Below the pieces are notes generated by a model. The model saw only the letters and a program-made list of their open reading frames with translations. It ran no database searches and was not told where the DNA came from. A stretch of DNA of 63,502 nucleotides, counting the filler, from Sphacelaria rigidula (lineage: Eukaryota), in NCBI GenBank assembly GCA_964200075.2. It is 8 parts of 8 records of this genome, joined end to end, with 100 filler letters (N's around TTAATTAATTAA, not from the genome) between each part and the next. Parts side by side here need not be neighbours in the genome. Positions count along the whole stretch, not along the records: positions 47,703 to 55,552 come from CAXNAA020013237.1; 7 more parts are not named here. One strand, 5' to 3'. The translations under genes were made by a program, and so were the position numbers. Each line of letters starts with the position of its first letter. Position 1 is the stretch's first letter. This document shows, piece by piece, positions 7,852 to 55,788 of the stretch.

Positions 7852-7951
7852 NNNNNNNNNNNNNNNNNNNNNNNNNNNNNNNNNNNNNNNNNNNNTTAAT
7901 TAATTAANNNNNNNNNNNNNNNNNNNNNNNNNNNNNNNNNNNNNNNNNNNN
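7852..7951. other. Artificial contig spacer (N44-TTAATTAATTAA-N44). Identical spacers at 15803-15902, 23753-23852, 31703-31802, 39653-39752, 47603-47702 and 55553-55652.
   Basis: Six-frame stop linker flanked by Ns, recurring every ~7950 bp. Confidence 0.98.
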
Positions 7952-10900
7952 CACAGGTCCACGACCTCTATTTCATACAGACCCGCGCGCTGAGTACAAG
8001 ATTCAGCCCTTAGGCCGCGCATCCCTCCGGAGGCATTTCGGGGTGTAGGCACATGGCCGCGTGTGCGGGTGACTTGCCTCATGCATCGCAGCTTATATGG
8101 CGTTTGGTTTAATGGTGAGGAACATCCAGGCTGTGTGGGCGAGTCCGGCGGTGGCGGTGCCGAAAAGGGACACATTCCTTGTGGTCAGCGACTATCAGGC
8201 GGTGAACGCGCAAGCGGGACAGTTTCCGGGGGTGATGCCAAGCCAAGAAGACATTCGGTAGTTGCTAGGAGCCCAATGCTTCGGAAAGTTGGACCTGCTA
8301 CAGGGGTATTGGCAGATGCCCCTGGCGCCAGAGGCTCAGGAAATCTTCACGATCGTCACGCCGGACGGTTTATGTCTACTCGTGTCCCGTAGGGCGTGTT
8401 GAACGCCACGGCGTATTTCCAAGGTGTGCTGACTGATATTTTCGAGATCTAGATTGTGAAGTGTGGGTGGATGGCGTTTTCTATTTTGCTGAAAACGAAG
8501 AAGCACTGTCAGCTTTGCTTGACGAAATTCTTGGCCGCTTGGAGAGTGTCGATCTGTCCGTTGCTGCGCATCAGTGTACCTTTTTCGCCCGCAAAGTGGT
8601 TTGATGTGGTGAGGTGTACTCCAAGGGTACTGTTTCGCATGATCCCGTCCGTATTCAAGGTTTGAGCAATATGCGATGTCCTCAAAACGCTAGTGAGCTG
8701 ATGCAGTTTCTTCAGGCGGTGAATTGGTTGCGGACTTGGTCCCGCGAAGTAGTTGCTCCGCTTCGAGTATTTCTGGAACAACTCATGGTCGGAGCTTCGC
8801 CTCGGACCAAGCGGGTAGCGCTTAATCGTACCATTCCGGAGGACGCTCGGACGGAGGATCGTGTGCGGGCATGGCGTGCTGCGCAAGATTTGGTGGCGCA
8901 AGCGGTGCCGCTGTATCATCCTCGTCCAGGGTGCGTTGTCATCATCTTCCCAGATTCTTCGGATTTTCACTGGGGTAGATTTTAGACGCAAGTGCCTATC
9001 GCAGAGTTTGGTGGTGGCATCGCGCTCGAACACATGTCACACGAACCGTTGGCTTTTCTGAGTGGTAGGTTCAAGGGTTCACCGTTGCGGTGGGCGACAG
9101 TGGACCAGAAAGGTTTCGCGATAGTCAATACATTTCGAAGGCCAGAGTACTCGCTTTTGGGGTGGCATTTTCACCGATCATCGCAATCTGAAGTACATTG
9201 TCAACCCCGAAGCGTGTGTCACATCGGTGACGAAGGCCATGGAACAACGGCTTGGAAATGGAAAGGAGTACTAGGTCAATATCGGTATGCCATTGAACAC
9301 ATTCCTGGAGAGCGCAATTGTTGGGGAGATTTCTTGTCTTGCTGGGTGAAGGTTCCTACCGTGCCTGTTCATTCTGTTGCCGTGTACAACCCGTGTAATG
9401 CCGATGATTCGTTGCCCTCGTTACATGTCATTCGTACCGCGCAGCGCAAAACAATCGGCGACGGTGTTCATTCGTTTTCTACGACTTTCGGTCAAGATAC
9501 TCCGGGTGACGATGGTTTGTTTCGCATGCGTGTTGGCAGTAGTGATGTGTTGTGGATTCCGTCGGATGATAAGGCTCTACAAACTCGCTTGATGATGTCC
9601 ACTCACATGCGGTCGACTGGTTACCGTGGTGTAGCGTCGACTCTGTTTCGTTCGAAAGAATACTGTGTGTGGCCTCACATGGATTCCCACGTTCGCGAGT
9701 GTAGACACTCGTGCTGGTGAGATTGTACCTCGTCCGTATGGCGATACAGTGCATGGCACTGCGCCAGGTGAAGCTGTTCACTTTGATCTTCTGTACGTCG
9801 GAAGTAGCGGACCTGAAGGTGCTAATGGTTTGCCTGAGGAGGATGGTTTTCGGTACGCTTTCGTTATCATGGTTGATTCGTCCAATTTTGTTTGCTTGGA
9901 ACCGACCGAGGCTTGCACCGCCGAGGTTACGGTAAGCACTTGCTTCATTGGTGCAAGACTTTGGGGGTACCGCGTGTTTGGGTTAGTGATACCGCCACGC
10001 ACTTCAAGAATCGACTGATCGCGCAGCGGAGCGATGCGCTCAAGATGCAGCACCAATTTGCTGTTGAGTACAACCCTTGGTCGAATGGTGCTTGTGAACG
10101 CATGGTGAAAGGGGTTATTCGTGCGTTGCGGTCTATCCTGTCGGAACAGTGACGGCCGGTATCTGAATGGGTTAATGTTTTGCTAGCCACTCAGCGGGCG
10201 TTCAATACTTCTGATCGTGAACGCTACCGTAACACTCCTATTGTGTGATGTTTGGGTGTACGCCGAGTATTGCGCTTTCCGCGCTGGCTTCTGTCTCTGG
10301 CGGCGAGTGGAACATCGATGTCATGGATGCTGATTCGTTGCGTGACAAGGTTCGAGGCGTGGTTGACCAGCAAGTGCGGTTTTGTAACGAAGTGCAAGCT
10401 GCTGTCGCGGTGTCTCGCCAAACCAAACGCAAGCTTGGGCAGGGCCAGGCTGTGTTGCGCAAGTTTGCAATTGGCGATTTCGTTTTGTATGCCCGTGTTC
10501 GGAGGCAAGGTGTGACGCCAAAGATGATATCCACGTAGACAGGTCCGTGGCGAGTGGTCGGAGCCGATCACGCTCACGTTTATTCGGTGCAGAACATTGT
10601 TTCTGGCGCCGTGCACTCGGCCCATCCATGTCGCTCGTTTGCAAATCTATGCTGACTCGCAGTTACACATCACTGCGGAGTTAAATAAATGATGTATTTC
10701 AGCATTTGTATGCTCAAGGTGAATGTCGGATAAATACTTCGGTGCACGTCGCTGAGGATGACAATGGGTGATGTCATTGTTTTGGGCGATTGGGAAGGGT
10801 TCGGTGCTGAAGAACGTACGTGGGAATAATCTCTTCGCAAGATTCATTCTTCTGCGCCTGAATTTGTTTTGAAGGAACTGCGTAAAGTCGGTAACTGCGG

Positions 10901-15660: not shown

Positions 15661-15902
15661 CTGCCGTCTCTTTTTACCGCAGGTGGCGCAAGCGCGAGAT
15701 GTAATGGATCCCACACGGGGAAGGCACGGCCTCAGCAATCGCGTGCGCGGACCGCTTGTGGGCATCATGCACTCGACAGGTATGAGGCACCCCTACAGCG
15801 ACNNNNNNNNNNNNNNNNNNNNNNNNNNNNNNNNNNNNNNNNNNNNTTAATTAATTAANNNNNNNNNNNNNNNNNNNNNNNNNNNNNNNNNNNNNNNNNN
15901 NN

Positions 15903-23480: not shown

Positions 23481-24156
23481 GCTCGTTGCGCAATACGGGC
23501 AATTGGCATTATTATGTGACGAGTGACGAGATGGATCGTATGATAGCGGTGTCCAGTGGCCTTCCTGCCTGTACCTCCGGCCGCTGCGCCAGATGATATT
23601 AACACTCGACACTATAGTCTAGATATTGTGTAGATACAACTTCCGGCGTAGGTGTCATGAGGCTTCAAGTTGCTCGAAGCTGGAAATTGTTCCAAGGGGG
23701 ATGTGATATGTGAGCATGAATAAGCACTGTGAACAATTTCCAGCTTCGAGCANNNNNNNNNNNNNNNNNNNNNNNNNNNNNNNNNNNNNNNNNNNNTTAA
23801 TTAATTAANNNNNNNNNNNNNNNNNNNNNNNNNNNNNNNNNNNNNNNNNNNNACATGCTACACAAGTAAATGTTTCGTCTCATCATCGGAACCGGCGCAG
23901 CGAGACATGTTATGAATAAAACCTCACTCTCGATCGTACTTTCAACGCTCGATTTCACGGAAACACTGTTAGATTTGCCGGCAGGATTTTGCACCAATGT
24001 ACGAGGTAAGCGTTTTGTCCATTAATGATGCAGACACTCCCCGCCGCTGAAATCCATGAAAAGCCTACTTTCAATCGTATCGTAGATTCTCATTCTCACG
24101 AAAACATTGTGTAATGTAAAGTATACAAGGGAGGACGGGACCTGTTAGAGGGGGAA

Positions 24157-28843: not shown

Positions 28844-31800
28844 CATACGGTGGGGTGGAACGTTCTACAAGATCCGGAGATTCCAAATAGCATACAGTGG
28901 GGTAACCCAGGACGCGTTGCTTTGCCCAAAACCTAAGCCCCGCCACCTGCCTGTTTATTTTTCTACTTCTGTAATTTATTTCTCATTAGTTGGTACAATC
29001 CCACAATTAAAAATAAACTATGACCGGTAATTCACTGCAGAAGTATCCAACAATTTTATGTCAACCATTTTGTTTCGCTCGGCCAGGTCACACACATCAC
29101 ACGCGCTAATCAGCGGTGGCCGCCGCGGGTTCAACCATGTGGTGTGGGTTCCCTGGATATGCTAACACTACCTTGGAGGATTCCAAGGCAGTCGAAGCCC
29201 GTGCACCGTTGCATGGCTATCAATTGAGCAGTGACCAAACCCAACGTTTTAATCCTTGATTTGATCACCCAGTTTTACATTCACCAGGTACTAATCATAT
29301 AACAGAAAATTTTGCGAATTGAGGTTTAACTCTGAGATGAGGCTCAAGTGGCAACCCGACTTGCGAACTGTTTGTAGTAGAAGTACCGAGGACAAGCTCT
29401 TATTCGGAGGAAGTAACCTGTGGAGGTGAACCCGTAACGCGTCATATTCAGTACGTCGAAGAATCGAGAGAATTAAGTCGGGTGAGCACTCTTGTTACTC
29501 TACACCACAGGGAAAAAGGTGGCAGCGCACGGATCCCATGTCTTACGCGAGGAACAGCACCCCGATCATGCCCGACAGGGTGGGAGGGGGGGGGGGGTGC
29601 TCGTCAGGCACGCACGACTAAGACGGGCACCGTTCGTGTCTTGGTATCGATCAGCTTCAGGTTTGTGCTTCCCCCCTCAATCAAAAAGTCGGTTTCAACG
29701 CAACATGGATAGCCCATTGCCCACAAGATTCCGTCACGGAAACGACTCGGATACTCCTCTTCGAACATTTCCCTCTGGCGAGAAGAATGATGCATTGTCT
29801 TTAATCGAATTCGAGAACGCGAGTAGGTGTTCCACGCACGGTGCTACCATCGGTTGCGATCGACAAGCGTTGACGCCGTCTTTTCTCATCAACGGGTACC
29901 CCCGGAACAAAACCACGCACAACGGGACAGAACGGTGAACCACCCCTCCCGCCCAAGCCCCCTATCCCGACCCAACCCCACCAAAACAGACCCTCGTTTT
30001 CAGAACCGAAGCCGCAAACATTATATCCGTCAATCTCCCGCGCCGTCATCGGTAGCGTCTTCATCTTCATCTGCATCGTCTTCCTCATTATCATCGCAGG
30101 GACTAGCGGCTGGGGTTAATCCAAGCCACCTTTTCTTAAATCCAGGGCCCCGTACAAAAAGATCCCCGGCACGAATGACTAATGGCTTTTTCGCCGCTAA
30201 TCTACTGCTCCACACGTGAGGTGTTGGTACACAAGCAATGAGAGCGTGCTTATCTCCGCCTCCGCTGTCTACAGCGGCAGCAACGTAAGCGTCTCTACTA
30301 CCTATATGGGGAATCTGCGACGTTATGTCGATGGCCTCATCATCGACCGTTGCTTCCCAAGTGAGGTAGAAAAATGGGCATCTCTACGCCACTTCTAGGT
30401 ATAACGCCGCCTTTGCTTTACACGTCTTCTTGCCAGGCTCGAACATTTTCCTCAGTCGTTTGTTGGTTTAGCTACCAAAATAAGGTGGATAGACTGCTCC
30501 TCTACGACATGGTCGATAGAATAAAGGGCGTCCTCCGGAGTGTCGCATATTTCATACTTCCCCCAGACGTGAATGTCCGGATAGGCGACGTCTTGGCGTT
30601 GTTTCGCGATCACGTGCAGCCTGTTGACCTGATCTAGAGTCGAAAACTGTGACCAAATCTGATTGCACGCGCGGCGGAGGTGAATGCGCGAGACGCGGTT
30701 CCTAGTCACGTCGCGAAGAGGGGAAGCAAAAATGTGTAATAGACTTCACGCATTCACTGTAGACTTGTGAAAACAATGGTACGAGATCCCGCGACAAACG
30801 CCACCCCTCAGATTCTCAGCGATACACACTCTGCTTGATCCCAAACGAAGGGTTCGAAGCGCGATAGGCATTCCGTTTGGCATGCCATGCCCGTTTCCTT
30901 CGAAATCTCCGCGTCGCCACTAGAAGAGCAGGAAGTGACAAGACAACCCCCGAGTGATGGCCTTCTCACTCGCCTGTCCTATGATTTAGGGTACTGAAGG
31001 GCAATACGTTGTCTGGGTATAATGATCGTTGTGACGGCTTTACAGATGGGTTCGTGACGAAGTTAGAGAGCAGACTCAGCCGACGTAAAGATAGAATAAC
31101 AATTTCTTTACTTTAAATGGGCCGAAATATATCCGAGCATCGCACTTATTCTACTATTTCGAAGCACTCGTAGAAGGTTTTGGCCGTTGTCAAGCCGAAC
31201 AGCGCTGGTTTTACCAGCAAGGTTTGTCAGTGAAGAAGGCAGTGGGGTCCAACACACGGGAATACGTAAAACTAGTGGTTGATTCGCGATTGTGATTATT
31301 GTTCGTTGTTTTTTTATAATGTTGTTTCTCTCTGGAGTTTAGAAAGGGGGGTATGCGGCCATTTTCGAGCCTGAATATTTGTTTTCATTCGTACGAAGCA
31401 AGCACCAAACGTAGACAACATATGCTTTTAACCGAAAATTGACCAAAAGTAGAAGACGAAGATCGGACCAAAATCCGGGCAAGATGAAGGGCCCGTACAA
31501 TTTAGGGTATCCTCTTGTATGGTACAGGGGAAGTACATTTGACTCGCCAATGCGTCAAGAAATATGCGAAAAAAATAAAACTGGTGCGTAGGTGCCCGCT
31601 AGCCTGATCACCACCTTGTCCTCACTGTGCGACCCTCAAACGGCCAAGAAGCAAGTAAACAAGACTCGATATGAACACCGTTCGTCTCGCCCGAAGCACT
31701 CTNNNNNNNNNNNNNNNNNNNNNNNNNNNNNNNNNNNNNNNNNNNNTTAATTAATTAANNNNNNNNNNNNNNNNNNNNNNNNNNNNNNNNNNNNNNNNNN

Positions 31801-32119
31801 NNGTCATCGACACGCGTGGACACCGCATTCGTTAGGTGCACCTGGCCACAGCTGCTTAACTGCTGCGGACATTTGGGGGGGAAGATGGTTTCGCTCGGTC
31901 GTAAGTGTTTCGCATCATCCCTGCAAAAAAAAATGTCACTTAAACCTCATTTTCGAGGTGGACCCCATTTTTCAGGATCCGCTGTTTTCATGAAATATGT
32001 GAATACATAATATGCGAGATGTAAACCTTCATCCCACCATTCACGCCTCAAGCCGAAGCGTCGTATCCAAGCTCAGGCGTGTAGACATACGCTCGTAAGT
32101 AGTGCTTTTGATTCGTATT

Positions 32120-33899: not shown

Positions 33900-36800
33900 A
33901 TTGTCGCACTTTAACTGACCCCCCAGGGATCCAGCCGTGGCCTCGTGATAGACGTACCCAAAATCTCAGGCATATCAGAAACGTGCCTGCTGCGAATAAC
34001 GAAGATTCGCGAGACAATTTACTTCTGCCCTCATCACATTCATTCGCCATACAGTTTGCAGTATCCTTCACTTGGAGGATGCAACCGGCGTCCAACGCTT
34101 TGAAGACCCCAATTGGGTAGACGGCTGGTAGACCCCCTTGCACAAAGCATTGCATCGATCCATTAGCCGCCGCTCTCCCGACATCGCTGCTCCTTTAACA
34201 CAGGTCCTCGACGGCTTCCCTGCCGAAATAGATCCGGATCGTCCCAAGGGGAAGACAGGCCCAGTATTGCTCTCTGATCTGGAAAGTTTGTCCCCTTCGC
34301 GGGTTATCTTTGCGAATATAAGCTTCTAGTCTCTGGTACTACGGGTGTCGGACGCCAAAACGGACTGAGCGACGCAATGTGTCAGACTTACGTCGCAATA
34401 GCGTTGCCCAACAGTATCCGGCTCTGATGCCGTCGTTGTTTCCGGGTGTCTTGGCGCGTCGCGAGGTGCCTTACACCTCTGTTGATGCTGTGTGGTCTGC
34501 TTTTGTACCCCAAGTTTGGGCAATCTAACGCCCGCCATACGTGGCAAACCTTCTATGCCTCTGCGTCCACAACCTACGGTGTTGTGTCCTCCGCTCATGC
34601 TCAAGGATCTCGCGGCAAAAATTCCAGTTCATTTCGCGCTTAATGAACCCCCGACTCGGTCGCCGGTTCACTTATGCACGTTCAAAGCAACAGAGATGCA
34701 TTCAGTGCGAGTTTTGATGGCTGGCCGTTTTCGGAGGAAACTTGGGATGATGTTTATTTGACTTCAACAACGGCATTCATTACAGATGATCCCCATTTGT
34801 GGAACCCACTTCTTTCGTCTCCTGCTAGACGTAATGTCTTCAGCATTCATGCCAACAGTTGCATCAACTGTAGTATTCAAGGTCACAGTATGCGTGACTG
34901 CGACAGTCCATGCACCAATGCCTTTGATCTTATGAACCCTGAATTGCAGGACAATAAACACACGTGGCGCCGATGGCAAAAACGCATGCGCGACTATCGC
35001 CCACCAAATCGAAATCATAGCAATAATTCGAATCAACGTGGCCACAAAAGCTCTAATCGCGGTCGCCGACAGAGCAACAATATTGCAAGCCGTTGCCAGA
35101 ACGATCATAATTCTCGCGACAACAAACTATCCCCTGATGGACATCAGCGGATGGGGCTGACACACAACTCGAACCCCAACACCAGAAACCCTGGTACCTT
35201 CACCACGGATCGCGTAGACCCATGACGTGCCGACGCCGGCTTTCTCCGGTCTGCCGCGCCGCCGACAGCAGTAGCGAAGATTTTTTCAACACAGCCCGCG
35301 GAATACATGACTAAGATTGTTCACCCGACTCACCCGGCACTTTGCAGGAGCGCTACAGACGGCCGTTCAAATCGACCCCCGTCTCCAAACTCCACACCGT
35401 TTTCAACACAGCCCGCAGAACCCGCGACTAGGATTGTTCACCCGGTTCCCACGGCACTATGCAGAAGCGCAACTGACGGCCGTTCAAACCGACCCCCGTC
35501 TTTATCCCTGCACACATCGCGTAATAGTTGTGGTACCCCGCGACTCAGACCTACACGCGGCCCTGAACTTGGTCCTTCAGTGCCGAGTATAAGTCGGTGG
35601 TGTGGGAGGACCAACCGTCAGTCCCTGAGGCAAATGGAACTTCGTTGAGAGGCAGTACAAGATGGCTCTCGCCTTTTCTAACTCCGCACTGACGCCAGCA
35701 CGAACGGATTTGGAGGAGGTTTGAATCAACCTCAGGTTGATGGCTCCGTCCGACCCATCCTTTTTATCAGCCGTGCTAACCTGCCCAACGAGGCCAATTG
35801 GAGCCCGCTAGAACTATAAGGCGGAGTAATCACTTGGGCCATTAAGCGCCTTTGACAATATCTGTTTAACGTGTCCTTTAAGATCTATACTGTTCATGGA
35901 GCAGTCGAACAAATAGCCAAGGTTAGCGAACACAACCCGCGTGTACGACGATGGTTGGAGTTTTTCATAGTATATCAGTGTACCATTAAGCACCGTCCAG
36001 GCAAAACCAACGGGAACGCTGATCTTCTTTCTCACCTACCCCTGCCGCCTACGGCCGCAGATTTCAGCCTGGCTTGCCGTTTAACGACACCCCATGAACC
36101 TGCAATTTACGTGATCAGACGTTTTTCAACGTCCGTTTACGCCCTCGACTTCCAGTGCCCAGAAACTGGTAAACATATGGGAGGACCTCGCCCTCATATG
36201 ACGCCGTCTTGGGTGGGTTAGCGCCCACTAACTCCAATTTGTCGATTTCCGCACTTTCGGTACTCGCGTGAAGCTCTTCACGGAGACACCTTCGGTCACC
36301 CACCTAATCTCCGACAACACGCACTCCCGGTCTGCCGCCCGCACCACCCCGAGTGCCCCGCCGCCACCGATAACACCTGCAAATTGCACGAGCCACGCAG
36401 CACAGGTTCCGCGGACCAGCATGCAAAGCTCCGCAGAAACTCCTGCAACGTCCACCATGCGCCGCGGACAATCTTCGCCGCGCACTGACACAGTCCCGCT
36501 GCCCATAACGGCGCCATCAACATCCATCGCTCCTGAGCATGGAGCTGATGACTGAGCTCTTGCTCCCGGGACAGATATTGACGTCAGCATCTCTGCTTCG
36601 TCACCTATTCTCCTGCTGCCTACCCCACCATGTTTGGTCGGCTCGCCAGCGGAAGGCCAACTATGCGAGTGCCAGCTGCTCTCACCGCGATCGGGCTCGC
36701 GAATAAACCGTTATGTCGCGCAGCCATCCGGTACTTACAACTTGACTGCCCAGTCTCTTTTCCATCCGCCCTTCTGGCTCCAGTTGGCACTCTGCCACCA

Positions 36801-38938
36801 CCAGTTATTTCTGACGTATACGAGCTCGTGCGTAAAGGCACCCTTTTTACTACGGATGAAGGTGTGCAACTACTGGCGCGTCGCCCCACGCCTTTGACAG
36901 GCGTAATGTCCGTCTCAACCACGGAACGCCCCGCACGACTACTCGATGACGAACCAACGCGCATACATGTGCCATTATTTATGCGCCCCAGGGTCATGAA
37001 AGGTTGCGACATAGACTTGTCATGTCACCTTGGCGGCACCCGCACCCTAGCGCTCTTGGAACGCTTCTACTGGTGGGTTGGCATGGAAATTTCTAACCAC
37101 TTCTGGATTCGGCGATGCTTCAAATGCCAAGCCTGAAAAACTTCACGACATACAGTACGCTGGCCCGTCATCCCTATGGCACTCCCCGACGAGCCAGGCC
37201 ACCTTGTGTCCTTTGACTACTTTGGCCGTCTACCGACCACAGGTCGCGGCAACACCTACATCTTACTCTGCACTGACCGCTTCAGCCGTCACGCGTCCAT
37301 GTACGCGGTATCCGCCGCAGATTTTACTACCGCTGGAACTGCCGACATATTGGTTCACGACTACATGAAGCACTACGGTTGCACGAAGCGACGCTTTTCA
37401 GACAATGGTCGGAAATTTCGCTAAGAGCTTTCTGATGAGCTTTACAAGATCCTGGGCATCCGCAAAGTTGCCACGAGCGTTTACCACCCGAACGGTAACG
37501 GTGGTACCGAAAGAGTTAGTCACACCATGGCCGAGATACTCGCTATGGTCGTCAATGACAACCAAAATGACTGGGACCTATATCTCTCGCACATCATGTT
37601 GTCCTACAACAAGTCGGTTAATGCTGCCACAGGCCTTTCTCCGATCAAACTCCATCTTGGACGTTACCCTCGACTGCCCATCACCGTGTTTAAGCGACAC
37701 ACGTTCCTTGGCCATCAAGGGTTGGATCAGGATCAGATATCCTATCACGAGGTAGCGCATGCACGACGACGCGAAGCGTTTTCCCTCGTGCGCGAACAAC
37801 ACGCTATCAAGAGCTAGCGCATGCACGACAACGCAAAGCGTTTGCCCTCGTGCGCGAACAACACGCTAACAACGCCTCGCGCCTGGAGAGATCTAACACT
37901 GCTCTCTACAACCTCATGCACAAACGCCCAAACTGGAAAGTTGTTGGTGATTGGGTTTGGATCTACAACAGTTTGTCGACCATCCGCCGAAGCACCAGCA
38001 AGGCAGCCAACGAAACAGTTTTGAAGACAAAATTGTCCCTCAATTGACCAGGACCATTCAAGATCCTGACAGTTGGACCATCGCCGTCATCCTCGGATGA
38101 TAAACCCGTTGGTGACAAACTGCTCTATCTCGACTCGCCTCGCGACTTCCAGGGCAAGGGCACCAAACCCCGCGTCTCCATGCATAGATGCGAACCATGC
38201 ACGAACCCGCCTGATACAAGCGACATGCCCAAGTACCGGCCTGCCGGACTCACACGGTACGTTCTCAACAGCTGCTCGACCAAGTCCCCGCCCTACCACG
38301 TGACCACCGACGATGTGACGGAACAGCCCCTCCGATTGACCGTGTCCACCATCTCCGACCACCAGATAAACCGTGATCGAGGTGGCAAATTTGCTGTCAT
38401 GTAAAAGACCCACTGGCACGGTCTCCGAAGAGCATCTTGGGAACGCGAATCCGACCTTCAATTGCACCGCCGTGCAATCCTCCTGTACTGGACGCAATCT
38501 CAACATCAGCATCTTGCTCACAACAAGAAATATCGCAACATGCGTCGTGGCGCAGCAGCCCGCGAACTTCACCGTGATCAGGGACTACGCTTCGTCGCCG
38601 ATGGTTACGAACATGTACCCACCAAGACTTGTAAGACGAAGTTCTTTGCAAACCAGCGACTCCTGCCCAAGGGCAGCTACCTTTGGTTCAAAGGCAGCGA
38701 CAGCCTCCGGTGGTTGGGTCAGACCCACTCCGCTAACCTGGTCCCTGCCGACACATACATCGTGCGCTTCATCGATGACCCTGGACCCGTACAGCTCAAG
38801 CTCCGACCAGCACTATACATCACCAGCCCATCTGCACCGCGCGGATCCTGGTGCCTCCAGCGCCTTGAGTCCAAAGGACTTCGCCGCGGTCTCCTGCGCA
38901 ACATCGACCACACCCACGACGTCCATGCCCCGCTTTGA
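33900..38938 (+). mobile_element. Degenerate Ty3/gypsy LTR retrotransposon: gag (Zn knuckle), RNase H, integrase and chromo-like domain; protease and RT absent
   Basis: Gag knuckle CINCSIQGHSMRDC. RNase H LRTDASTNGFGGGLNQPQVDGSVRPILFISR...WAIKRL and HRPGKTNGNADLLS. Integrase HLGGTRTLALLERFYWW...CFKCQ, VSFDYFG...ILLCTDRFSR, SDNG and YHPNGNGGTERV. Chromo-like HWHGLRRASWERESDL. Many stops; the 5' boundary is approximate. Confidence 0.9.
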
Positions 38939-39350: not shown

Positions 39351-39752
39351 CTGTTTTCTCCTCTCGTTTTGCTAGGACGCCGAAGCAATTTGTGCTTACT
39401 TGTTGATCGCTAGCACGCAGAAGCAACTTGTGCTTCCGCGTTCCGAAGCAGTTTTTCTGCTCTTCGAAGCAGTATATGCTTCCCTTCTTTTGAGGTGCAG
39501 GAGTGGGTACGGGAGTGTTGGGTACGGGAGTGTTTCCTTACAATGCTTTGAGGATAAATCTGTTGGGTACCGGAGCGTTTGCATAGGTAACAGTGTTTTC
39601 GTGAGATTGAGAGTAGATGATACGATTGAGAGTGGCTTTGATCATTCGCTTTNNNNNNNNNNNNNNNNNNNNNNNNNNNNNNNNNNNNNNNNNNNNTTAA
39701 TTAATTAANNNNNNNNNNNNNNNNNNNNNNNNNNNNNNNNNNNNNNNNNNNN

Positions 39753-46936: not shown

Positions 46937-49315
46937 CTGTCAGGCATACACATCCCGGAATTCAACATGCTATTGACGGCAGGAACAGGATGGCATGCGA
47001 GTAATGCTGTGGTGGTGGCAGTGGTGGTGGGGAGGTGTACTCATGATCATGTATGCCATAGTCATCTGACCATTGACGTCGCATCCCTACAAAGCCGGGA
47101 CGAAGCACGCCGGGTTTTCGCCGGACTAGGCTCGCAATCAATCACCACGCCGAAGCGCCGTGGTGTGTTTGGCGGGTCGTATCACGGGTGAACTGCATCC
47201 TGCTAAGACTGTTCGGCCCGAAGGGTGCTGATTATCTTGCATTCGGATGACAGCCTCCAATGAGTTGCTTCACTTTCTGGTATTGCCACTTCCAGAGACA
47301 GCCATGGCTTACACACTGCCTCATGGGTGTCTCACCATTTAGGCACTACGTAGTACGATCACCTTTGCGCGGAGTTGAGGTTCTCCCACCCCGCATAATA
47401 TGATTAAGCTCGACCACCGCGATGGTTACCGCAAGAAAAACGCAACCAAGCAAAATAAATCGACAACCTGGTTGCCTAGCTTACGTAGTGATTGGCGTGT
47501 TTTATAGCGTCATCGCTAACCGACGCCAACCCCATAGGGAGTGTTGGGGGGGGGGGGCGTCCTCATCTCTTGCTTGCCTTAGTCGTTTGACTATTGACCA
47601 CGNNNNNNNNNNNNNNNNNNNNNNNNNNNNNNNNNNNNNNNNNNNNTTAATTAATTAANNNNNNNNNNNNNNNNNNNNNNNNNNNNNNNNNNNNNNNNNN
47701 NNTCGCCCGCGATCGTTTGCGATCGTCAGCGTGTTAAGTGTTGGGTTGGATTTCCTCCTTTCATCAAGGAAAAAAAAACAAAATGTGGCCTTCCAGGGGG
47801 TTATGATTCAAAATATATATATATATATTCGCTGGGTCATCATTTGATTGTGTACATGCCGTACCTACGCACACTGCCTACCAAGTGTGCATCGCCGCTC
47901 AGTTGTTCAGCTGATGATATCTTTATACATGCACTACTGGTGATGAGAAAGCCGCCACCACCTTATCCGAAATTCGACTGTCGGTACGTGCCTAACATTG
48001 TGTACCGCAGAGTGTTGGGTTTGCCATCCCATACTGCATCGACTTGGGTAAACTTTCGTCGTTACTCACGTCTTTCACGGTGCTACCAGTAAAGGTCAGG
48101 CATGTCCATAACCCGGAACCGACCCCGGAACCTACCGTTTATAGCCCGAAGTCAGCTTTTGGCGGAACCTACCGGTTATAACCGCAAAGAACAGGGAATG
48201 AAAAACGCCCATCCCCCGGGATTCCAACCCAGTTTCTTCCATTGGCTTCATACTGTATACCGCTTTTGATGCGGGTGGACCATCTTTAAATGGGGCGTTT
48301 TGCCGTGGTGACTGCCAGTTGTTTGCGATGTGATGGTTCCTCCACTGTTCAAGTGAAGGGAGTGTGTGTGTGTGTTTTATTTTTTGTCGCCCCAGAAAAA
48401 AGTAAAGCACGCTCGTTCAGTGTTCCATGTTTCATAATTCATATTTGGGTAGGGTAGGTTGCGCGTATGGCTCATACCACTTCACTAGCTCCATCGCTCG
48501 CCAGCATTGTCTGGAAGTATACGCAACCAAACAACAAACAAGCTGATCAAGCCCCACAGAAGTCAACGCGTTTTCCTTCGCTAAAGCCAAGGGCGCAAAC
48601 ATCCTCCTTCTCCTCTCCACCCGTCCCAAGATCAAAGAGCCCGAGAAACCAGATGCTTTGCGCCCATCAGTAGGACCCTCCAGAGTCGAGGGGTTTGAAA
48701 GCGATCCCCACACGGGTGAAGCCATGTGGTGTGCTGTCTGGTGTGTAGGTCCATGTGTCTATGGTCTGCTGCGGTGGGAGACTGAGCACCGCAGAGCGCT
48801 GTGTGTAGTACGTAGAAGCCTGCAGTGAGGGGGCCCCGCGAGTACTCGAGGGGGCCCCGTGAATGAGGGGACCCTGCAGAGTACAAAGTAACCCCAAATT
48901 TAGGCGGAACCTACCCTGGTAAAAATGTATGGTTCATATAATTACCCGAATGTGATGGTACCCTACCTACGTGATGTGCGGGGGGTAATCCGCTCGCAGC
49001 AGATTTACGGTCGCGATAGCTAGCACCACACGACGCTGTTCAATTCACATTTCAATCGCTTCTGGGCAAAACTCTCATGCCTCACCGGCAACTGGAACAG
49101 GGCCTTTTGGTTTCTTGTGGATAGGAAGACGGATGGTTCAGCCATACAGGCTGGTTCACAGGGGAAAACTCAAATTCTGTCACCAGCAAATGCCTCTTGC
49201 AATACGCATCCAATAGTCGCATACATGGTATCATACTGACCGCAATGAACAGACGAAGAGGGTGACATAGCCGGATTCGTGCTTAAGGCAATAGCGGTGG
49301 CGCTATGGACAAAAA

Positions 49316-49506
49316 TGATTGATTGATTTATTGATTGATTATCTCACATTAGCTGATTGCAACAATCCAGCCCGTGGTCAGGAGCAGCAAAAATAGAACA
49401 TAATTATAATTAAAAAAAGAAAGAAAGGAACAGAAAAGCGACAGAAGCAACGGTCTCAGAAAGGAAAGGAAGGGGGCAGCGATAAAAACAACCTAACACC
49501 ACCACC

Positions 49507-49538
<32 letters not shown>

Positions 49539-52500
49539 CAACAAACAACAACAACAACAACAACAAACAACAACAAACAACAACAACAAACAACAGGAAC
49601 GAACAACAACAGCAGAAACAACCAAATAACGACAAACATAAGCACAAACACAAGCACGAACAAATACAAAAAAAAATGATGATCGCGCATTACGTAGCTG
49701 ATTGCAACACTCCAGCTCGTGAGCAGAAACATAAAGGAGAAACATGAGGGAGAAACATAAACGAAAAATCCAAGAAAGAAAAACCAAAATAATACTAGAA
49801 CGTGAGAAAAAACAAGGAATACAATAGACAAGAAGACAGAGCCGGGCTCGTTCCCGCGGCGGGGGGAGGGGGGGGAAGCACAGACGAAAAAAAATAAAAA
49901 GGGAACCACCAGGAACAAAATATGAACAAAGCAGAGATGGGGACCAAATACAATGCCCTGCGTATCTGGCATAGGCTTGGGTGAGTTGCTGTTGGTACTG
50001 TCGGTCCCAGGTGCTGCCGGTGCATCTTGGCTGGCAGCTCTCGCGTGCCGTATCGCAGCCGCTGCGTCATCCTTTTGGTACCAGTCCGTCATAAACATTT
50101 CTGCTCCCTGTTCAACACAGCTGTGCCACTGTACTGCATTCAAGGCTCTGGTAGTCCACCCCTGCCATTCGATACCGAACGCCTTCATGTCTTTCGCTAG
50201 GCAGCGGATCCAGTCCTTGTGCCTGCCGTTAAACCCTCTTTCTTGCCCCCTCACGGCTATAATTTCACCGAACATGACGTGTTTCGGTACCCGTCCGGGT
50301 GATATGCGCGTGACGAAACCGGCAAAATGGAGTCTCCTCTTCCTCACCGTCATCTCGATGCTTTCGCACCCTGTCCTCGCGAGGGTCTCTCGGTATGACA
50401 GAACGTGGTCTGTGCGATCGCGCTTGTGCCATCCAAGACAGCGTCTGAGCAACGCATGGTGGGCCGTGCGCAGTGTACTGTAGTGACCGCTGAGAGTGGT
50501 CCATGTGACGCACCCGTACAGGAGTGCTTTGACAGCCTCGGCTTTGATCATGCGGACCTTGAGGTGGACGGCCGCGTTCGGTCGATTGTATAGTTGGACT
50601 TTGTACTTGTGGTAGCTCGACCATGCCCCTCGTACGCGCTTGTTGATTTCCACCGAGAGGTCGCCACTCTCCGTAATCGACCCCCCCAGGTAAACAAAGC
50701 TGTCTGTTCGTATACCTGACCAGCCGCATCGATGTCGAGGTGCCCCGCCTGTGAGTGCAGTCGCATGGTCTTCGTCTTTGCTTCCGACACGGTCAACCCG
50801 ACCTCTCCGCAGATCGCCAGAGTCACAGTCATCATCTTCTCGAGGCTCGATGGTGTCCGCGAGACGATGCAGGCGTCATCGGCGTACAGCATACTCCATA
50901 GGGACCGTTCCTCTTCCTCCGCTATTGCTGTGGCCACATCTGGCTCGACCCATGCTATAGCACATTCCTGGTGGAAATCTCCCTTTTCGCGCTTCCAGAC
51001 TCGCACCAGGTCCCCCGAGATGTCAGGGTCATCGCGGAAGACTGCCAGGGCCACCGTGAGAACTGCCGTAAAAAGATGTTGAACAGCAGTGGTGCTAGGA
51101 CGCATCCCTGTCGGAGGCCCTGGTCGATGTCGAACCATTCCGAGTATTCCTCGTCGTTCGTGCGCACCCGAGCTTGCATGCCAACGTGGAATTGGCGGAT
51201 GATCGAGAGCATGATGGTTGGGACGCCATAGCGTTCCAGGACTTTCCACAGCAGTGGGCGGTCGACAGAATCGTATGCTTTCGTGAGGTCGACGAAACAC
51301 ATGTAGAGCGGCATTTGTCGTCTCTGGCCAAGTTCCCGGAGTCGTCGGACGGTGAACATCATGTTGACGGTTGAGCGTCCGGGGCGGAAGCCGCACTGCT
51401 CTTCAGGCAGAATTCCATTGTCCTCGCAGTAGGTGCTCAGTCGGCGAGCGATTATCTTGAGGAGCACCTTGCCGGCGTGTAACACGAGTGAAATTCCCGT
51501 GTAGGTTCCGCATTCCGTCCGATCGCCTTTCTGGAGCATGATGATGGTGGCATCCTTCCATTCTTGTGGTACGGCTGCTCCGCCCCAGATGTCAACGATG
51601 ATAGCGTGGAATCTCTGCAGTCGGTTAGTGTCGTCACCGTCGAGGAGTATCTTCAGCAGTTCAGCCAGCACTTCATCTAGGCCAACGGCTTTTCTGTTGG
51701 ACATAGACCGTGTGGCATCCGCTCTCTCGATTGTAGGCATCTCGTCTAGCGATGTCTTCAGAAGTCGCGCCTGGAGTTGGTCAATGATTGCTGGGTTGAG
51801 GCGGGGCCACTTGGTGTTGAGGAGGGTGTGAACCACTGTACCCACCGCGGGCGGATGAGCTCAACGTCTCTGAGCAGTTGACCCTTGTCGTCGCGGATAT
51901 ATTGCTGCTGTGAGCTACATAGTTTTCTCCGTCCGACATCGATTCCCTTCAGGTGTCGGTAAAAACCGCGTTGGTCACCTCTCGCGATGTGCGCTTCAAG
52001 TCGGCTGACGTACGTCTCGAAGAATCTCTCCACCGCATGTGCTCTAACACGACGAAGTTCCTTGTCGGCCTTCTTCAAAACTCTCTCAAGGTTGGTGTCA
52101 GTGGGCGTTGACATCGATGCCCTCCGTGCTTCTTCCTTCGCCATCCATTCAGCGTGGATCTTTGCCTTGGTCTCGGCACTCGCGCACCAGCCGTGGGAGC
52201 CTCGTTGGTTTCTCTCGTGGGGGGCGGTGTCTACTGCGGCGGATATCAGTATCTTGGTGAGGCCTGCAGCCATGTCGGCGGCGGTAGAATCTATGGGCAA
52301 GGGATCGAGAGGGAAGGCCGTTTGCAACGTCATTGCTCTCAACGTCGGGTCAGCCATCAGCCTTTCAAGGTCGGCCGTTCTGCGTCTGGATGCATATTTC
52401 CGTAACTTGCGATTGGGCGCAAAGCGACCACGGAGCCGGACCTTTGCAGATACGAGGTTATGGCCAGACTCGCGTTTGCCGGGTGGTGGGCGGCGGACGG

Positions 52501-53960
52501 AAATGTTGCGTACGAGCCTTCCGTCCGTCTGTCTTGTGAGGATGTAGTCAAGACGATAGCGTCCCTTCCCGGCGTTGGGGCTTCGGAAAGTGTACGATAT
52601 GCCCCGCTTGGGTGTTCTGAAGAACGCATTTAGCACAGCGAGGCGTTTATCCTCTGCAAAGGCCAGTAGCCTGCCACCGTTATTGTTCAGTACATCCCGC
52701 CCGTATTCGCCAAGTACCTTGCTATCATTCTCTCCACTCTCCTCCCCTCATTTTCCAGTGCGGGCGTTGGCATCCATCATGACGAATAGATGTTCCTTGC
52801 TAGGTACTTATGGGACGGTATCGGATACGTCATCCCCAAACTTGTTTTTGTCGCGCAGCGGAGCGGTCTCCGTCGGGGCATACCCAACTACAAATGATAC
52901 TGCGTTGGATTTACCGTGTAGGTCAAGTTTCTTTCACCTTCATAAGTCGAGCACTGAGGTATTCGATTGTGGCACCTTTCCTCCCATCTCCTCCAGGATT
53001 GACTCCTTGATAGCGATCCCTACCCCATATTGTCCTGCTCTTCCCTTAGCCCCGCTTGTATCACCAGAACAAAATACCGTGAATCCCGCCGCACTGAACA
53101 CCGATTGACCATCTCTCCTGGTTTCTTGTAACCCTACGATATCGCATCCCAGATACTGACAAGGTTTCAGGACAATTTCACTGTGGCCAATGCCCTTCAC
53201 ACCTTTGAAAGCGAGCGTGCGAACATTGTAGGTGCCGACAGTAAGCTTGCCGATCCTGGCCCTCGCCCTCGCATTCTTTTTCCTCTTATCGGCAGCCCTC
53301 CGATCTGCTCGTCTCCTACGCCTCTTTCTCCTTGCGGCGTGTTTTTTCTTCTTCTCCGTCCCTTTACATACAAGTATATATTTCTGTTCCGAAATGGACA
53401 CTGCTCCGTGCGTGCTTGTTATCAGACATGATTTCGGAGGCAGCATTCCCGACATGCCTCGACCGGTTCCACCACCGCATCGTTTCTTGTGCTTACACAC
53501 CTGTAGATACCTAGCAACTCTACTCTCCTGCTACGTTTCCCACGCTTTCGGCGACCGTTACCTGGTGTCGCTGCCGCGGGCTGTGTAGCCGCGGCAAACT
53601 TTGCCGTTGGGAAAACCTTCGTCGGGAAAAATTCCGCCGCATAAGGATTTAGTGCCGTCATCATCGTCGAGCGTAAGCAGCAGTTAGGGTAGCAAGACGG
53701 TTGCTACGCTATTACTGTTGTTGCTGTTGTTACTACTGCTGTGGACGACGACGTCTTTGCTACACCTCAGGTGTGTGCGTGCAGGTTCGCAGTTCACACA
53801 CCCGCCCCAGGCCGGGCAGCCCGGGGAGGGAAGCGGCCATACGCGACATCGGACGTTGGGAGGTAAACACTGCAAAACCGAAGAGAGGAAAGTTTGGCTG
53901 CTGAGACTTCGAGTCGAAGCGCCAGATAGGTGCTTCCGGTGTGCATGTTTGCGGCGCTCC
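49316..53960 (-). mobile_element. Near full-length RTE-clade LINE (APE endonuclease + RT) inactivated by several frameshifts, with a (TCAA)n 3' tail
   Basis: Endonuclease motifs LTVGTYNVRTL, DIVGLQETRR, QYGVGIAI and YRLDYILTRQ...SGHNLV. RT motifs [45 protein letters not shown] and MLYADDACIVS. RTE C-terminus ALLYGCVTW...SIEMTVRKRRLHFAG...VPKHVMFGE. The coding region is split over ORFs 53664-53422, 53500-52940, 52636-51758, 51845-50955, 51396-50548 and 50653 onward. No TSD was found, so the 5' boundary is approximate. Confidence 0.93.
49496..49630. repeat. (CAC)n-(CAA)n compound microsatellite in the LINE 3' region
   Basis: Visible directly. Confidence 0.95.
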
Positions 53961-55262: not shown

Positions 55263-55788
55263 AACTGGCATGACCACATGCATGATGCCATGCCCATATC
55301 ATCAGTTGCGGTATCCGCGTCCTAAGATACAGCCATGCACGCGCTGCAGGAGCTGCACGGCGCTGTTGCTTCGACCAGTTCTCATGTCGTGCACGACCAA
55401 CAAACTCTTATCGCAGAGTGTGGCCATGTTTTTTGTAGGAGCATGAAGCGAGGCGGAGACAGGTGCGATTTCGCTCGGCAAACATGTCTTAACAACAAAT
55501 TGTGAGAATTGAGGTTTAACTTCGAGATGAGGCTCAAGCCTAAAACAGTGCTNNNNNNNNNNNNNNNNNNNNNNNNNNNNNNNNNNNNNNNNNNNNTTAA
55601 TTAATTAANNNNNNNNNNNNNNNNNNNNNNNNNNNNNNNNNNNNNNNNNNNNAAACCGTGGATGGGGACACGGTCATTATCATTTCTGCACTTTACGAGT
55701 CAATTTTTTTGTGGTAACCCCCCCCCCCCCCCCCTCTTCCCCCCCGCCCTCCTGCCTGCCCTCTTACCCCTTCGCTGTGAATCATTAG

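What the first reader, a model, noticed from the sequence alone, without database searches (positions are those of the whole stretch)
53422..53664. PAM2-like (PABP-binding) motif at the very N-terminus of an RTE LINE ORF
Seen in sequence: the first ORF of the RTE element starts MMTALNPYAAEFFP (53664-53623). Removing one TG dinucleotide at ~53497-53500 (AGG TGT GT AAG) fuses it in frame with the Arg/Lys-rich leader and the endonuclease (…YRCKHKKR…KLTVGTYNVRTL). Established: LNxxAxEFxP is the PAM2 consensus that binds the MLLE domain of cytoplasmic poly(A)-binding protein, and PABPC is a known host factor of mammalian L1. Inference: this LINE lineage may use a PAM2 peptide, which would be translated first, to tether nascent EN-RT protein to PABP on its own mRNA (cis-preference or RNP assembly). 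This is notable because the element ends in (TCAA)n rather than poly(A). I do not know of this being described for RTE elements.
Basis: partly seen in the sequence, partly recalled or inferred. Interest (0 to 1): 0.75.

Follow-up and report, generated by a model that had tools for sequence, protein, structure and literature searches.

The report
PAM2-like motif heading an algal LINE
A jumping gene of a brown alga begins its single long protein with a short peptide that closely resembles the motif many proteins use to grip the poly(A)-binding protein, which hints at how the element might hold on to its own RNA, but binding has not been tested.

Summary
The motif is real. On the minus strand, 53664-53623 reads MMTALNPYAAEFFP at the first AUG of a decayed ~4.5-kb RTE-like LINE (49316-53833).

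Four other copies of the family (P0002, P0004, P0005, P0007) all change frame relative to the window at 53527-53530. There, 44-83% of contig depth in four runs carries one extra base. With that base the motif, a basic leader, the endonuclease and the RT form one ORF (P0007, 695 aa).

Four of five copies keep L-N-P-x-A-x-E-F-x-P and vary only at the x positions. The fifth (P0004) has lost three core residues.

Pfam PAM2 scores 14.0-16.1 bits in 3 of 5 copies, under its 20-bit cutoff. The best PDB match of the N-terminal profile is a PAM2 peptide, at a non-significant E-value.

I could not test MLLE binding, whether the host has such a PABP, or whether other brown-algal RTEs carry the motif.

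Five literature searches found no PAM2 in any LINE. Human L1 ORF2p was recently proposed to bind PABPC1 through a different motif, so this would be a new variant of a known idea. Odds that the motif is functional: about 0.5.

The parts
49316..53833 (-). Whole decayed RTE-like non-LTR retrotransposon (about 4.5 kb)
   Evidence: 5' boundary: contig depth falls after 53835 and the loose ends behind 53833 diverge. 3' tail at 49316-49340. The EN-RT reading is spread over three frames and has stops. No target-site duplication of 6 or more bases was found.
53665..53833 (-). 5' UTR, 169 nt, without any AUG
   Evidence: An in-frame stop lies at 53706-53704, upstream of the start codon.
53623..53664 (-). 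Start codons and PAM2-like motif (M1-P14); the core L-N-P-x-A-x-E-F-x-P is 53652-53623
   Evidence: Pfam PAM2 14.0 bits, E 0.041, cutoff 20. Family majority has D at codon 8 (53643) and V in about two thirds of depth at codon 4 (53654).
53422..53664 (-). The 80-codon ORF as it stands in this copy; codons 47-80 are out of frame relative to the family
53528..53529 (-). Place where this copy lacks one base that about half or more of the contig depth carries; this is the true frame junction between the motif and the leader
   Evidence: table 4. tblastn frame change at 53527-53530 for 4 of 4 N-terminus-bearing copies. Alignment A1.
53246..53527 (-). Leader between motif and endonuclease: a Cys/Gly segment followed by an Arg/Lys-rich stretch
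   Evidence: Frame-0 translation, conserved 70-88% between copies. The basic stretch is predicted as a long helix with pLDDT 60-90 in an otherwise poor model.
52480..53245 (-). AP-type endonuclease domain (approximate end), interrupted by stops in this copy
   Evidence: Pfam Exo_endo_phos in the window piece, P0005 and P0007; mapping.
50600..51530 (-). Reverse transcriptase domain (approximate), split over two frames
   Evidence: Pfam RVT_1, E 3e-22. Nearest solved chain is human L1 ORF2p, E 6.1e-18. Frames.
49316..49340 (-). 3' tail, imperfect (TCAA)n in element orientation
   Evidence: TRF finds TGAT x 6.2 on the + strand; sequence read.

Best explanation
This is a dead copy of a single-ORF, RTE-like LINE of a brown alga. 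In working copies, translation starts at the element's first AUG and first produces a PAM2-like peptide (L-N-P-D-A-x-E-F-x-P). Next come about 150 residues of leader that includes an Arg/Lys-rich stretch, then the endonuclease and the reverse transcriptase. Shown here: the motif, its place at the first AUG, its continuity with EN-RT in other copies, and its retention in 4 of 5 copies with change only at the consensus's free positions. Inferred: the peptide binds the MLLE domain of the host's cytoplasmic poly(A)-binding protein as soon as it leaves the ribosome. This would tie the nascent EN-RT protein to the 3' end of the RNA being translated. That favours action in cis and RNP assembly in an element that has no ORF1 protein. 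It would be analogous to, but mechanically different from, the PIE-RRM1 contact proposed for human L1 ORF2p.
For: Motif present and rarer than chance in this window: 1 site against 0.08 expected for a loose pattern, and 0 of 200 shuffles for the strict one. First AUG: the 169-nt 5' UTR has no AUG. One ORF: P0005 (318 aa) runs from the motif into the endonuclease, and P0007 (695 aa) runs on to the start of the RT. P0002 and P0004 cross the same junction. All 4 change frame relative to the window at 53527-53530. The extra base is in 44%, 45%, 83% and 63% of contig depth in runs X1, X4, X2 and X8. Conservation: in the 4 copies that keep the motif, the 10-residue core varies only at the three x positions (Y/D; A/V/T; F/L/Y/H), while 28 of 45 N-terminal columns are invariant. 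By my arithmetic, the chance that 3 variable positions out of 10 fall exactly there is 1/120, or 4/120 if the P position is also counted as free; the copies are not independent. Likeness to proven PAM2 peptides: of 177,635 PDB sequences, the best match of the N-terminal profile is 'superPAM2' (8smo_B) and the fifth is the Paip2 peptide of 1jgn_B, each identical at L,N,P,A,E,F,P. Pfam PAM2 is the only Pfam hit of the window's 80-residue ORF and of P0002. Precedent: L1 ORF2p PIE-PABPC1 (PMC7617806).
Against: Pfam PAM2 stays under its curated cutoff of 20 bits in all copies. It gives 14.0, 16.1 and 15.7 bits in 3 of 5 and no hit in P0004 and P0007. The PDB matches have E 0.75 and 1.5, and the other 3 of the 5 hits are an unrelated receptor. 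P0004 has lost 3 of 7 core residues. The N-terminal extension as a whole changes faster than the endonuclease, 70-79% against 90% identity. Of 7 listed majority differences in the first 135 coding bases, 0 fall in the 21 core-codon bases where about 1.1 would be expected, which is not significant (186 further rows were not shown). The more distant relative P0008 shows no such motif in its predicted N-terminus, which may be incomplete. Only five N-termini could be seen, all from one family. 17-56% of contig depth lacks the joining base. The fold is too poor (mean pLDDT 48.9) to show disorder. The tail is not poly(A), and the RNA's real 3' end is unknown. The host's PABP and its MLLE domain were not examined.
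Confidence: 0.5

Rival explanations
1. Look-alike without function. The N-terminal extension is a fast-changing, low-constraint leader, and its likeness to PAM2 is a family-specific accident. It appears in several copies only because they descend from one recent master.
For: All Pfam scores are below the cutoff. The PDB E-values are not significant. P0004's motif is broken. No homologue of the N-terminus exists outside the family: only 3 hits among 1.84 billion proteins, 2 of them family copies and 1 spurious. The leader evolves faster than the endonuclease. The first-stage scan read very many windows, so a rare 10-residue pattern will turn up somewhere by chance.
Against: All seven defining residues match, at the first AUG of the element. 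Two subfamilies about 75% identical in this region keep the core and differ only at the free positions. The best PDB match of the profile is a PAM2 peptide.
Confidence: 0.33
2. Two-ORF organisation. The frame arrangement seen in the window is the working one: a short PAM2-bearing first ORF overlaps a separately translated or frameshift-translated EN-RT ORF. This would match what I recall being described for C. elegans RTE-1 (recalled, not seen in a paper here).
For: 17-56% of contig depth across the junction lacks the joining base. In the window the two frames overlap by about 100 bases.
Against: 4 of 4 database copies with the N-terminus read straight through. The window's out-of-frame tail (codons 47-80) has no family homologue, whereas the other frame is 70-88% conserved between copies. 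The window copy is dead anyway, with several further frame breaks and stops. Gene callers may favour long ORFs, so this count is biased.
Confidence: 0.07
3. The motif is functional but serves another end: it binds an MLLE domain outside PABP (a UBR5-type HECT ligase; recalled), or recruits PABP to stabilise or translate an RNA that lacks a poly(A) tail, rather than to enforce cis-preference.
For: The tail is (TCAA)n, not poly(A). Nothing here tells these uses apart.
Against: No evidence bears on it. The host's MLLE proteins were not examined.
Confidence: 0.1

Closest known systems
PAM2 motifs of PABP-interacting proteins (Paip2, ataxin-2 and others; Pfam PF07145)
   Same: The same ten-residue core, L-N-P-x-A-x-E-F-x-P. 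It is identical at seven positions to the Paip2 peptide solved with the PABP C-terminal domain (1jgn_B) and to an engineered superPAM2 (8smo_B). It probably sits in an unstructured stretch.
   Different: It sits at the extreme N-terminus of a retrotransposon's EN-RT protein rather than in a host regulator. It scores below Pfam's cutoff. Binding is untested.
PIE element of human LINE-1 ORF2p, which binds PABPC1 (Ghanim et al. 2025, PMC7617806; passages read)
   Same: A peptide in the N-terminal part of a LINE's EN-RT protein is proposed to contact cytoplasmic PABP co-translationally and so give cis-preference.
   Different: PIE lies in the EN-RT linker (residues 272-297), is predicted to bind RRM1 and is not a PAM2. 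L1 has a poly(A) tail and an ORF1 protein. The present motif would bind the MLLE domain, precedes the endonuclease, and belongs to an element with a (TCAA)n tail and no ORF1.
RTE-type LINEs of brown algae, such as RTE-1_Ec32 of Ectocarpus (PMC12477816; supplementary file 1 part 1 read)
   Same: A single EN-RT ORF, about 4.5 kb (4584 bp in Ectocarpus) and a short microsatellite tail.
   Different: The tail is (CAA)n there and (TCAA)n here. That paper's main text never mentions PAM2 or PABP. Its consensus FASTA files could not be read, so I do not know whether they carry the motif.

Membership tests
   Present in the window and in P0002, P0005 and P0007, so 4 of 5 copies; broken in P0004. Aligned residue by residue with two solved PAM2 peptides.
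PAM2 (MLLE-binding linear motif, Pfam PF07145) | Score at or above Pfam's gathering cutoff (20 bits) | tested here: not met
   14.0 bits (window), 16.1 (P0002), 15.7 (P0005), no hit for P0004 and P0007. I therefore call it PAM2-like, not a Pfam member.
PAM2 (MLLE-binding linear motif, Pfam PF07145) | Lies in an accessible, disordered region | tested here: inconclusive
   Residues 1-89 of P0005 have pLDDT below 50, but the whole model is poor (mean 48.9, 7 sequences).
PAM2 (MLLE-binding linear motif, Pfam PF07145) | Binds the MLLE domain of PABPC, and the host has such a domain | not testable with these tools
RTE clade of non-LTR retrotransposons | Single ORF with an AP-type endonuclease before the RT and no gag-like ORF1 | tested here: met
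   P0007 is continuous from the N-terminus through Exo_endo_phos to the start of the RT. RVT_1 in the window. No other ORF with a Pfam domain inside the element.
RTE clade of non-LTR retrotransposons | Short simple-repeat 3' tail instead of poly(A) | tested here: met
   Imperfect (TCAA)n at 49316-49340. The family's 3' boundary itself was not checked with other copies.
RTE clade of non-LTR retrotransposons | RT falls inside the RTE clade in a phylogeny | not tested
   No reference RTE sequences were at hand. The nearest solved RT is L1 ORF2p, which does not decide the clade.
L1-type PIE element (binds PABPC1 RRM1) | Conserved segment in the EN-RT linker that contacts RRM1 | not tested
   Considered only as a functional analogue. 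The motif here is of another kind and at another place.

The most novel reading that the evidence does not exclude
A LINE lineage with no ORF1 protein and no poly(A) tail has independently acquired a true PAM2 peptide as the first thing its ribosome makes. The nascent EN-RT protein then grabs PABP by its MLLE domain on its own RNA. This would be a second, convergent route, beside L1's PIE-RRM1 contact, to co-translational cis-preference. It would suggest that tethering to PABP is a general need of LINEs.
Probability: 0.3. Interest if true: 0.75.

Novelty: new variant of a known kind. Interest (0 to 1): 0.55.

Why it matters
How a LINE protein picks the very RNA that encoded it (cis-preference) is an old open question. 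A direct ORF2p-PABPC1 contact was proposed for human L1 only in 2025. A textbook PAM2 peptide at the N-terminus of an unrelated, ORF1-less LINE in brown algae would be independent, convergent support for that idea. It is also easy to test, because PAM2-MLLE binding is well understood and a single Phe change should abolish it. It would add retrotransposons to the list of PAM2 users as well. If the motif turns out to be an accident, the result is still an ordinary decayed RTE copy, now with its frame breaks mapped.

Tried and rejected
- Whole-genome search for copies: no genome is held for this window. The window holds only this one copy.
- Database copies: two of the three word-index searches returned a single useful protein each and the third only the query itself. 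The exhaustive HMMER search gave 3 hits, one of them (P0003, a repeat protein matching the out-of-frame tail) judged spurious.
- Two JGI metagenome scans found no relative. Two earlier tries failed because the alignment was not conserved enough.
- phmmer of the 35-residue N-terminus against the PDB: 0 hits at E up to 10. phmmer of P0007: 0 hits at E up to 0.01.
- ESM Atlas with residues 1-45 of P0005: no usable feature hit, and all structure rows had TM below 0.4.
- Earlier notes of this scan: nothing by place, sequence or words.
- No RNA holder is listed for the stretch. Four runs are only guessed to be RNA, so nothing can be said about expression.
- Pfam scan of 111 other open frames of the window found no PABP or MLLE gene.
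- The Ectocarpus RTE consensus FASTA supplements cannot be read here.
- TAL-effector rows have no matched stretch and were ignored.

Full report
**What is in the window.** Read on the minus strand, 53664-53422 is an 80-codon ORF that begins MMTALNPYAAEFFP. It is the 5' end of a decayed non-LTR retrotransposon.
- Pfam finds an AP-type endonuclease remnant just downstream and RVT_1 (E 3e-22) further on.
- The nearest solved reverse transcriptase is human L1 ORF2p (E 6.1e-18).
- The EN-RT reading is spread over three frames and has several stops, so this copy is dead.
- The 3' end is an imperfect (TCAA)n at 49316-49340.
- The 5' end lies at about 53833. Contigs of four public runs laid at 80% likeness lose depth after 53835, and their loose ends behind 53833 diverge.
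- The 169-nt 5' UTR (53833-53665) has no AUG, so the motif ORF starts at the element's first AUG.
- I found no target-site duplication of 6 or more bases.
- The window holds no second copy.

**Is the motif more than chance?** A loose PAM2 pattern matches once in the six-frame translation of the window, at this site. 200 Markov shuffles gave 0.08 matches per window, and the strict pattern gave 0 in 200.
- Pfam's PAM2 model is the only Pfam hit of the ORF, at 14.0 bits and E 0.041, against a curated cutoff of 20 bits.
- The first-stage scan read very many windows, so a single rare match proves little. The weight has to come from other copies.

**Other copies and the reading frame.** No genome is held for this window.
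- An exhaustive HMMER search of the ORF against 1,835,955,588 proteins gave 3 hits. P0002 is listed by NCBI as a partial protein of the brown alga *Sphacelaria rigidula*. P0004 is a family copy. P0003 is a repeat protein that matches only the ORF's tail, and I take it as spurious.
- The cluster of a further copy, P0001, yielded P0005 (318 aa) and P0007 (695 aa).
- P0005 runs MTVLNPDAAEFYP, leader, endonuclease without a break.
- P0007 contains MTVLNPDATEFHP and continues through the endonuclease to the start of the RT.
- P0007 also has 28 further residues upstream of the motif, from an upstream AUG that the window lacks.
- By tblastn, all 4 copies that bear the N-terminus change frame relative to the window between 53530 and 53527.
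- At that spot the laid contigs carry one extra base behind 53528: 27.5 of 62.6 depth units (X1, 1 contig), 1138.2 of 2548.9 (X4, 6 contigs), 21.5 of 26 (X2, 3 contigs) and 517.5 of 826 (X8, 5 contigs).
- With that base, the motif frame runs into the frame of the leader and endonuclease.
The GTGTGT there encodes the V-C that P0002 also has. No indel at that place is among the 12 indel rows shown; 10 further rows were not shown.
- The working element is therefore most likely a single-ORF LINE whose protein begins with the motif.
- The share of depth without the extra base (17-56%) leaves some room for a two-ORF form. Against that, the window's out-of-frame tail has no family homologue, whereas the other frame is 70-88% conserved.

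**Conservation of the motif.** Five N-termini could be compared.
- Four keep L-N-P-x-A-x-E-F-x-P.
- Within those ten positions, these four copies vary only at the three x positions: Y/D, A/V/T and F/L/Y/H.
- Across the first 45 columns, 28 are invariant in these four.
- Given three variable positions among ten, the chance that they are exactly those three is 1/120, or 4/120 if the P position is also counted as free. This is my arithmetic, and the copies are related, so it overstates the evidence.
- The contigs agree. The family majority has D where the window has Y (53643: 2397.4 of 2474.7 in X4, 1469.7 of 1501.3 in X8). About two thirds have V at codon 4 (53654).
- Against the reading, P0004 has lost three of the seven core residues (MTVRNPDAAALCP).
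- The N-terminal extension changes faster than the endonuclease: 70-79% against 90% identity between the window and P0005.
- Of the 7 listed majority differences in the first 135 coding bases, none falls in the 21 core-codon bases, where about 1.1 would be expected. That is not significant, and 186 rows were not shown.
- Pfam PAM2 gives 16.1 bits for P0002 and 15.7 for P0005, and nothing for P0004 and P0007.
- A profile of the five N-termini, searched against 177,635 distinct PDB sequences, has as its best hit an engineered 'superPAM2' peptide (8smo_B, E 0.75). Its fifth hit is the Paip2 peptide of 1jgn_B (E 1.5). Both are identical at L,N,P,A,E,F,P. The other three hits are an unrelated receptor. 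These E-values are not significant, as expected for ten residues.

**What could not be tested.**
- A more distant relative, P0008, has no such motif in its predicted N-terminus, which may be incomplete.
- Two metagenome scans found nothing.
- The consensus sequences of the Ectocarpus RTE families are in FASTA supplements that cannot be read here. The annotation sheet says only 'single EN-RT ORF; (CAA)n 3'', 4584 bp for RTE-1_Ec32.
- So whether the motif exists outside this one family is open.
- No host PABP was available, so neither the presence of an MLLE domain nor a complex model could be checked.
- The fold of P0005 is poor (mean pLDDT 48.9). Residues 1-89 are below 50, and the Arg/Lys-rich stretch is a helix at 60-90. 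This fits a disordered N-terminus but does not show one.
- No listed run is on record as RNA.

**How it most likely works.**
- Shown: the motif, its position at the first AUG, its continuity with EN-RT, and its retention with variation at the free positions.
- Inferred from what is established about PAM2 peptides (recalled; the Pfam model and two PDB entries were seen): the peptide binds the MLLE domain of cytoplasmic PABP.
- Because it is translated first, it could tie the nascent protein to the PABP-covered 3' end of its own RNA, close to the 3' UTR and tail where reverse transcription must start.
- The basic leader may add RNA binding or nuclear import. That is inference only.
- I put this at about 0.5, against about 0.33 for a functionless look-alike. 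The rest goes to a two-ORF form or another use of the motif.

**Comparison with what is known.** Five full-text searches found no paper that describes a PAM2 motif in a LINE. The term sets were PAM2 + retrotransposon; PAM2 + non-LTR; MLLE + LINE-1; 'PAM2 motif' + 'transposable element'; and PABC + retrotransposon + ORF2 (listings and abstract starts only).
- The last search led to Ghanim et al. 2025 (PMC7617806; passages read).
- That paper reports that human L1 ORF2p has a 'PIE' element at residues 272-297, predicted to bind RRM1 of PABPC1. It reports that alanine substitutions disrupt activity and proposes that the contact sets up cis-preference co-translationally.
- The present motif would be a different peptide, at a different place, binding a different PABP domain, in an element without ORF1 and without a poly(A) tail.
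- I therefore rate it a new variant of a known kind.
- RTE membership rests on architecture: single EN-RT ORF, size and simple-repeat tail. No phylogeny was made.

**Verdict.** The functional reading is plausible, has a fresh precedent and is cheap to test, but rests on five related sequences and sub-threshold motif scores. Interest 0.55.

Noticed in passing
window 53728-53830 (-), the 5' UTR of the element: One contig of run X4 (record 23) holds this ~102-base stretch twice, with 46 other letters between (a 'goes back 103' joint). Some copies may therefore carry a tandemly duplicated 5' UTR segment, reminiscent of the promoter monomers of other LINEs.
   Followed up: no
P0007 residues 1-28, which correspond to window ~53665-53750: In this copy the 5' UTR is open in frame from an upstream AUG, so the motif would sit 28 residues inside the protein rather than at its very start. 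The window has a stop (53706-53704) and no AUG there.
   Followed up: partly
window 53246-53400 (-); P0005 residues 90-140: The Arg/Lys-rich stretch before the endonuclease is predicted as one long helix with the highest confidence of the model (pLDDT 60-90). It could be a nuclear-import or RNA-binding segment that stands in for the missing ORF1 protein.
   Followed up: no
window 49497-49662: A long run of triplet repeats (CAC, then CAA on the + strand, i.e. TTG-type in element orientation) lies in the 3' region, between the end of the RT-side coding remnant and the (TCAA)n tail.
   Followed up: no
window 8986-9717 (+) and 36582-37133 (+): Two open frames carry the integrase zinc-binding domain Integrase_H2C2 (E 4.9e-06 and 2.4e-08). 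These are remnants of LTR retrotransposons, so the window is repeat-rich and has few recognisable genes.
   Followed up: no
window 7852-7951, 15803-15902, 23753-23852, 31703-31802, 39653-39752, 47603-47702, 55553-55652: Pairs of 44-base N blocks recur every 7950 bases. This looks like regular masking of the record rather than assembly gaps.
   Followed up: no
window 53836-53950: The DNA just outside the element's 5' end also has depth above one contig's worth and majority differences in runs X4 and X8, so the insertion may itself lie inside another repeat.
   Followed up: no
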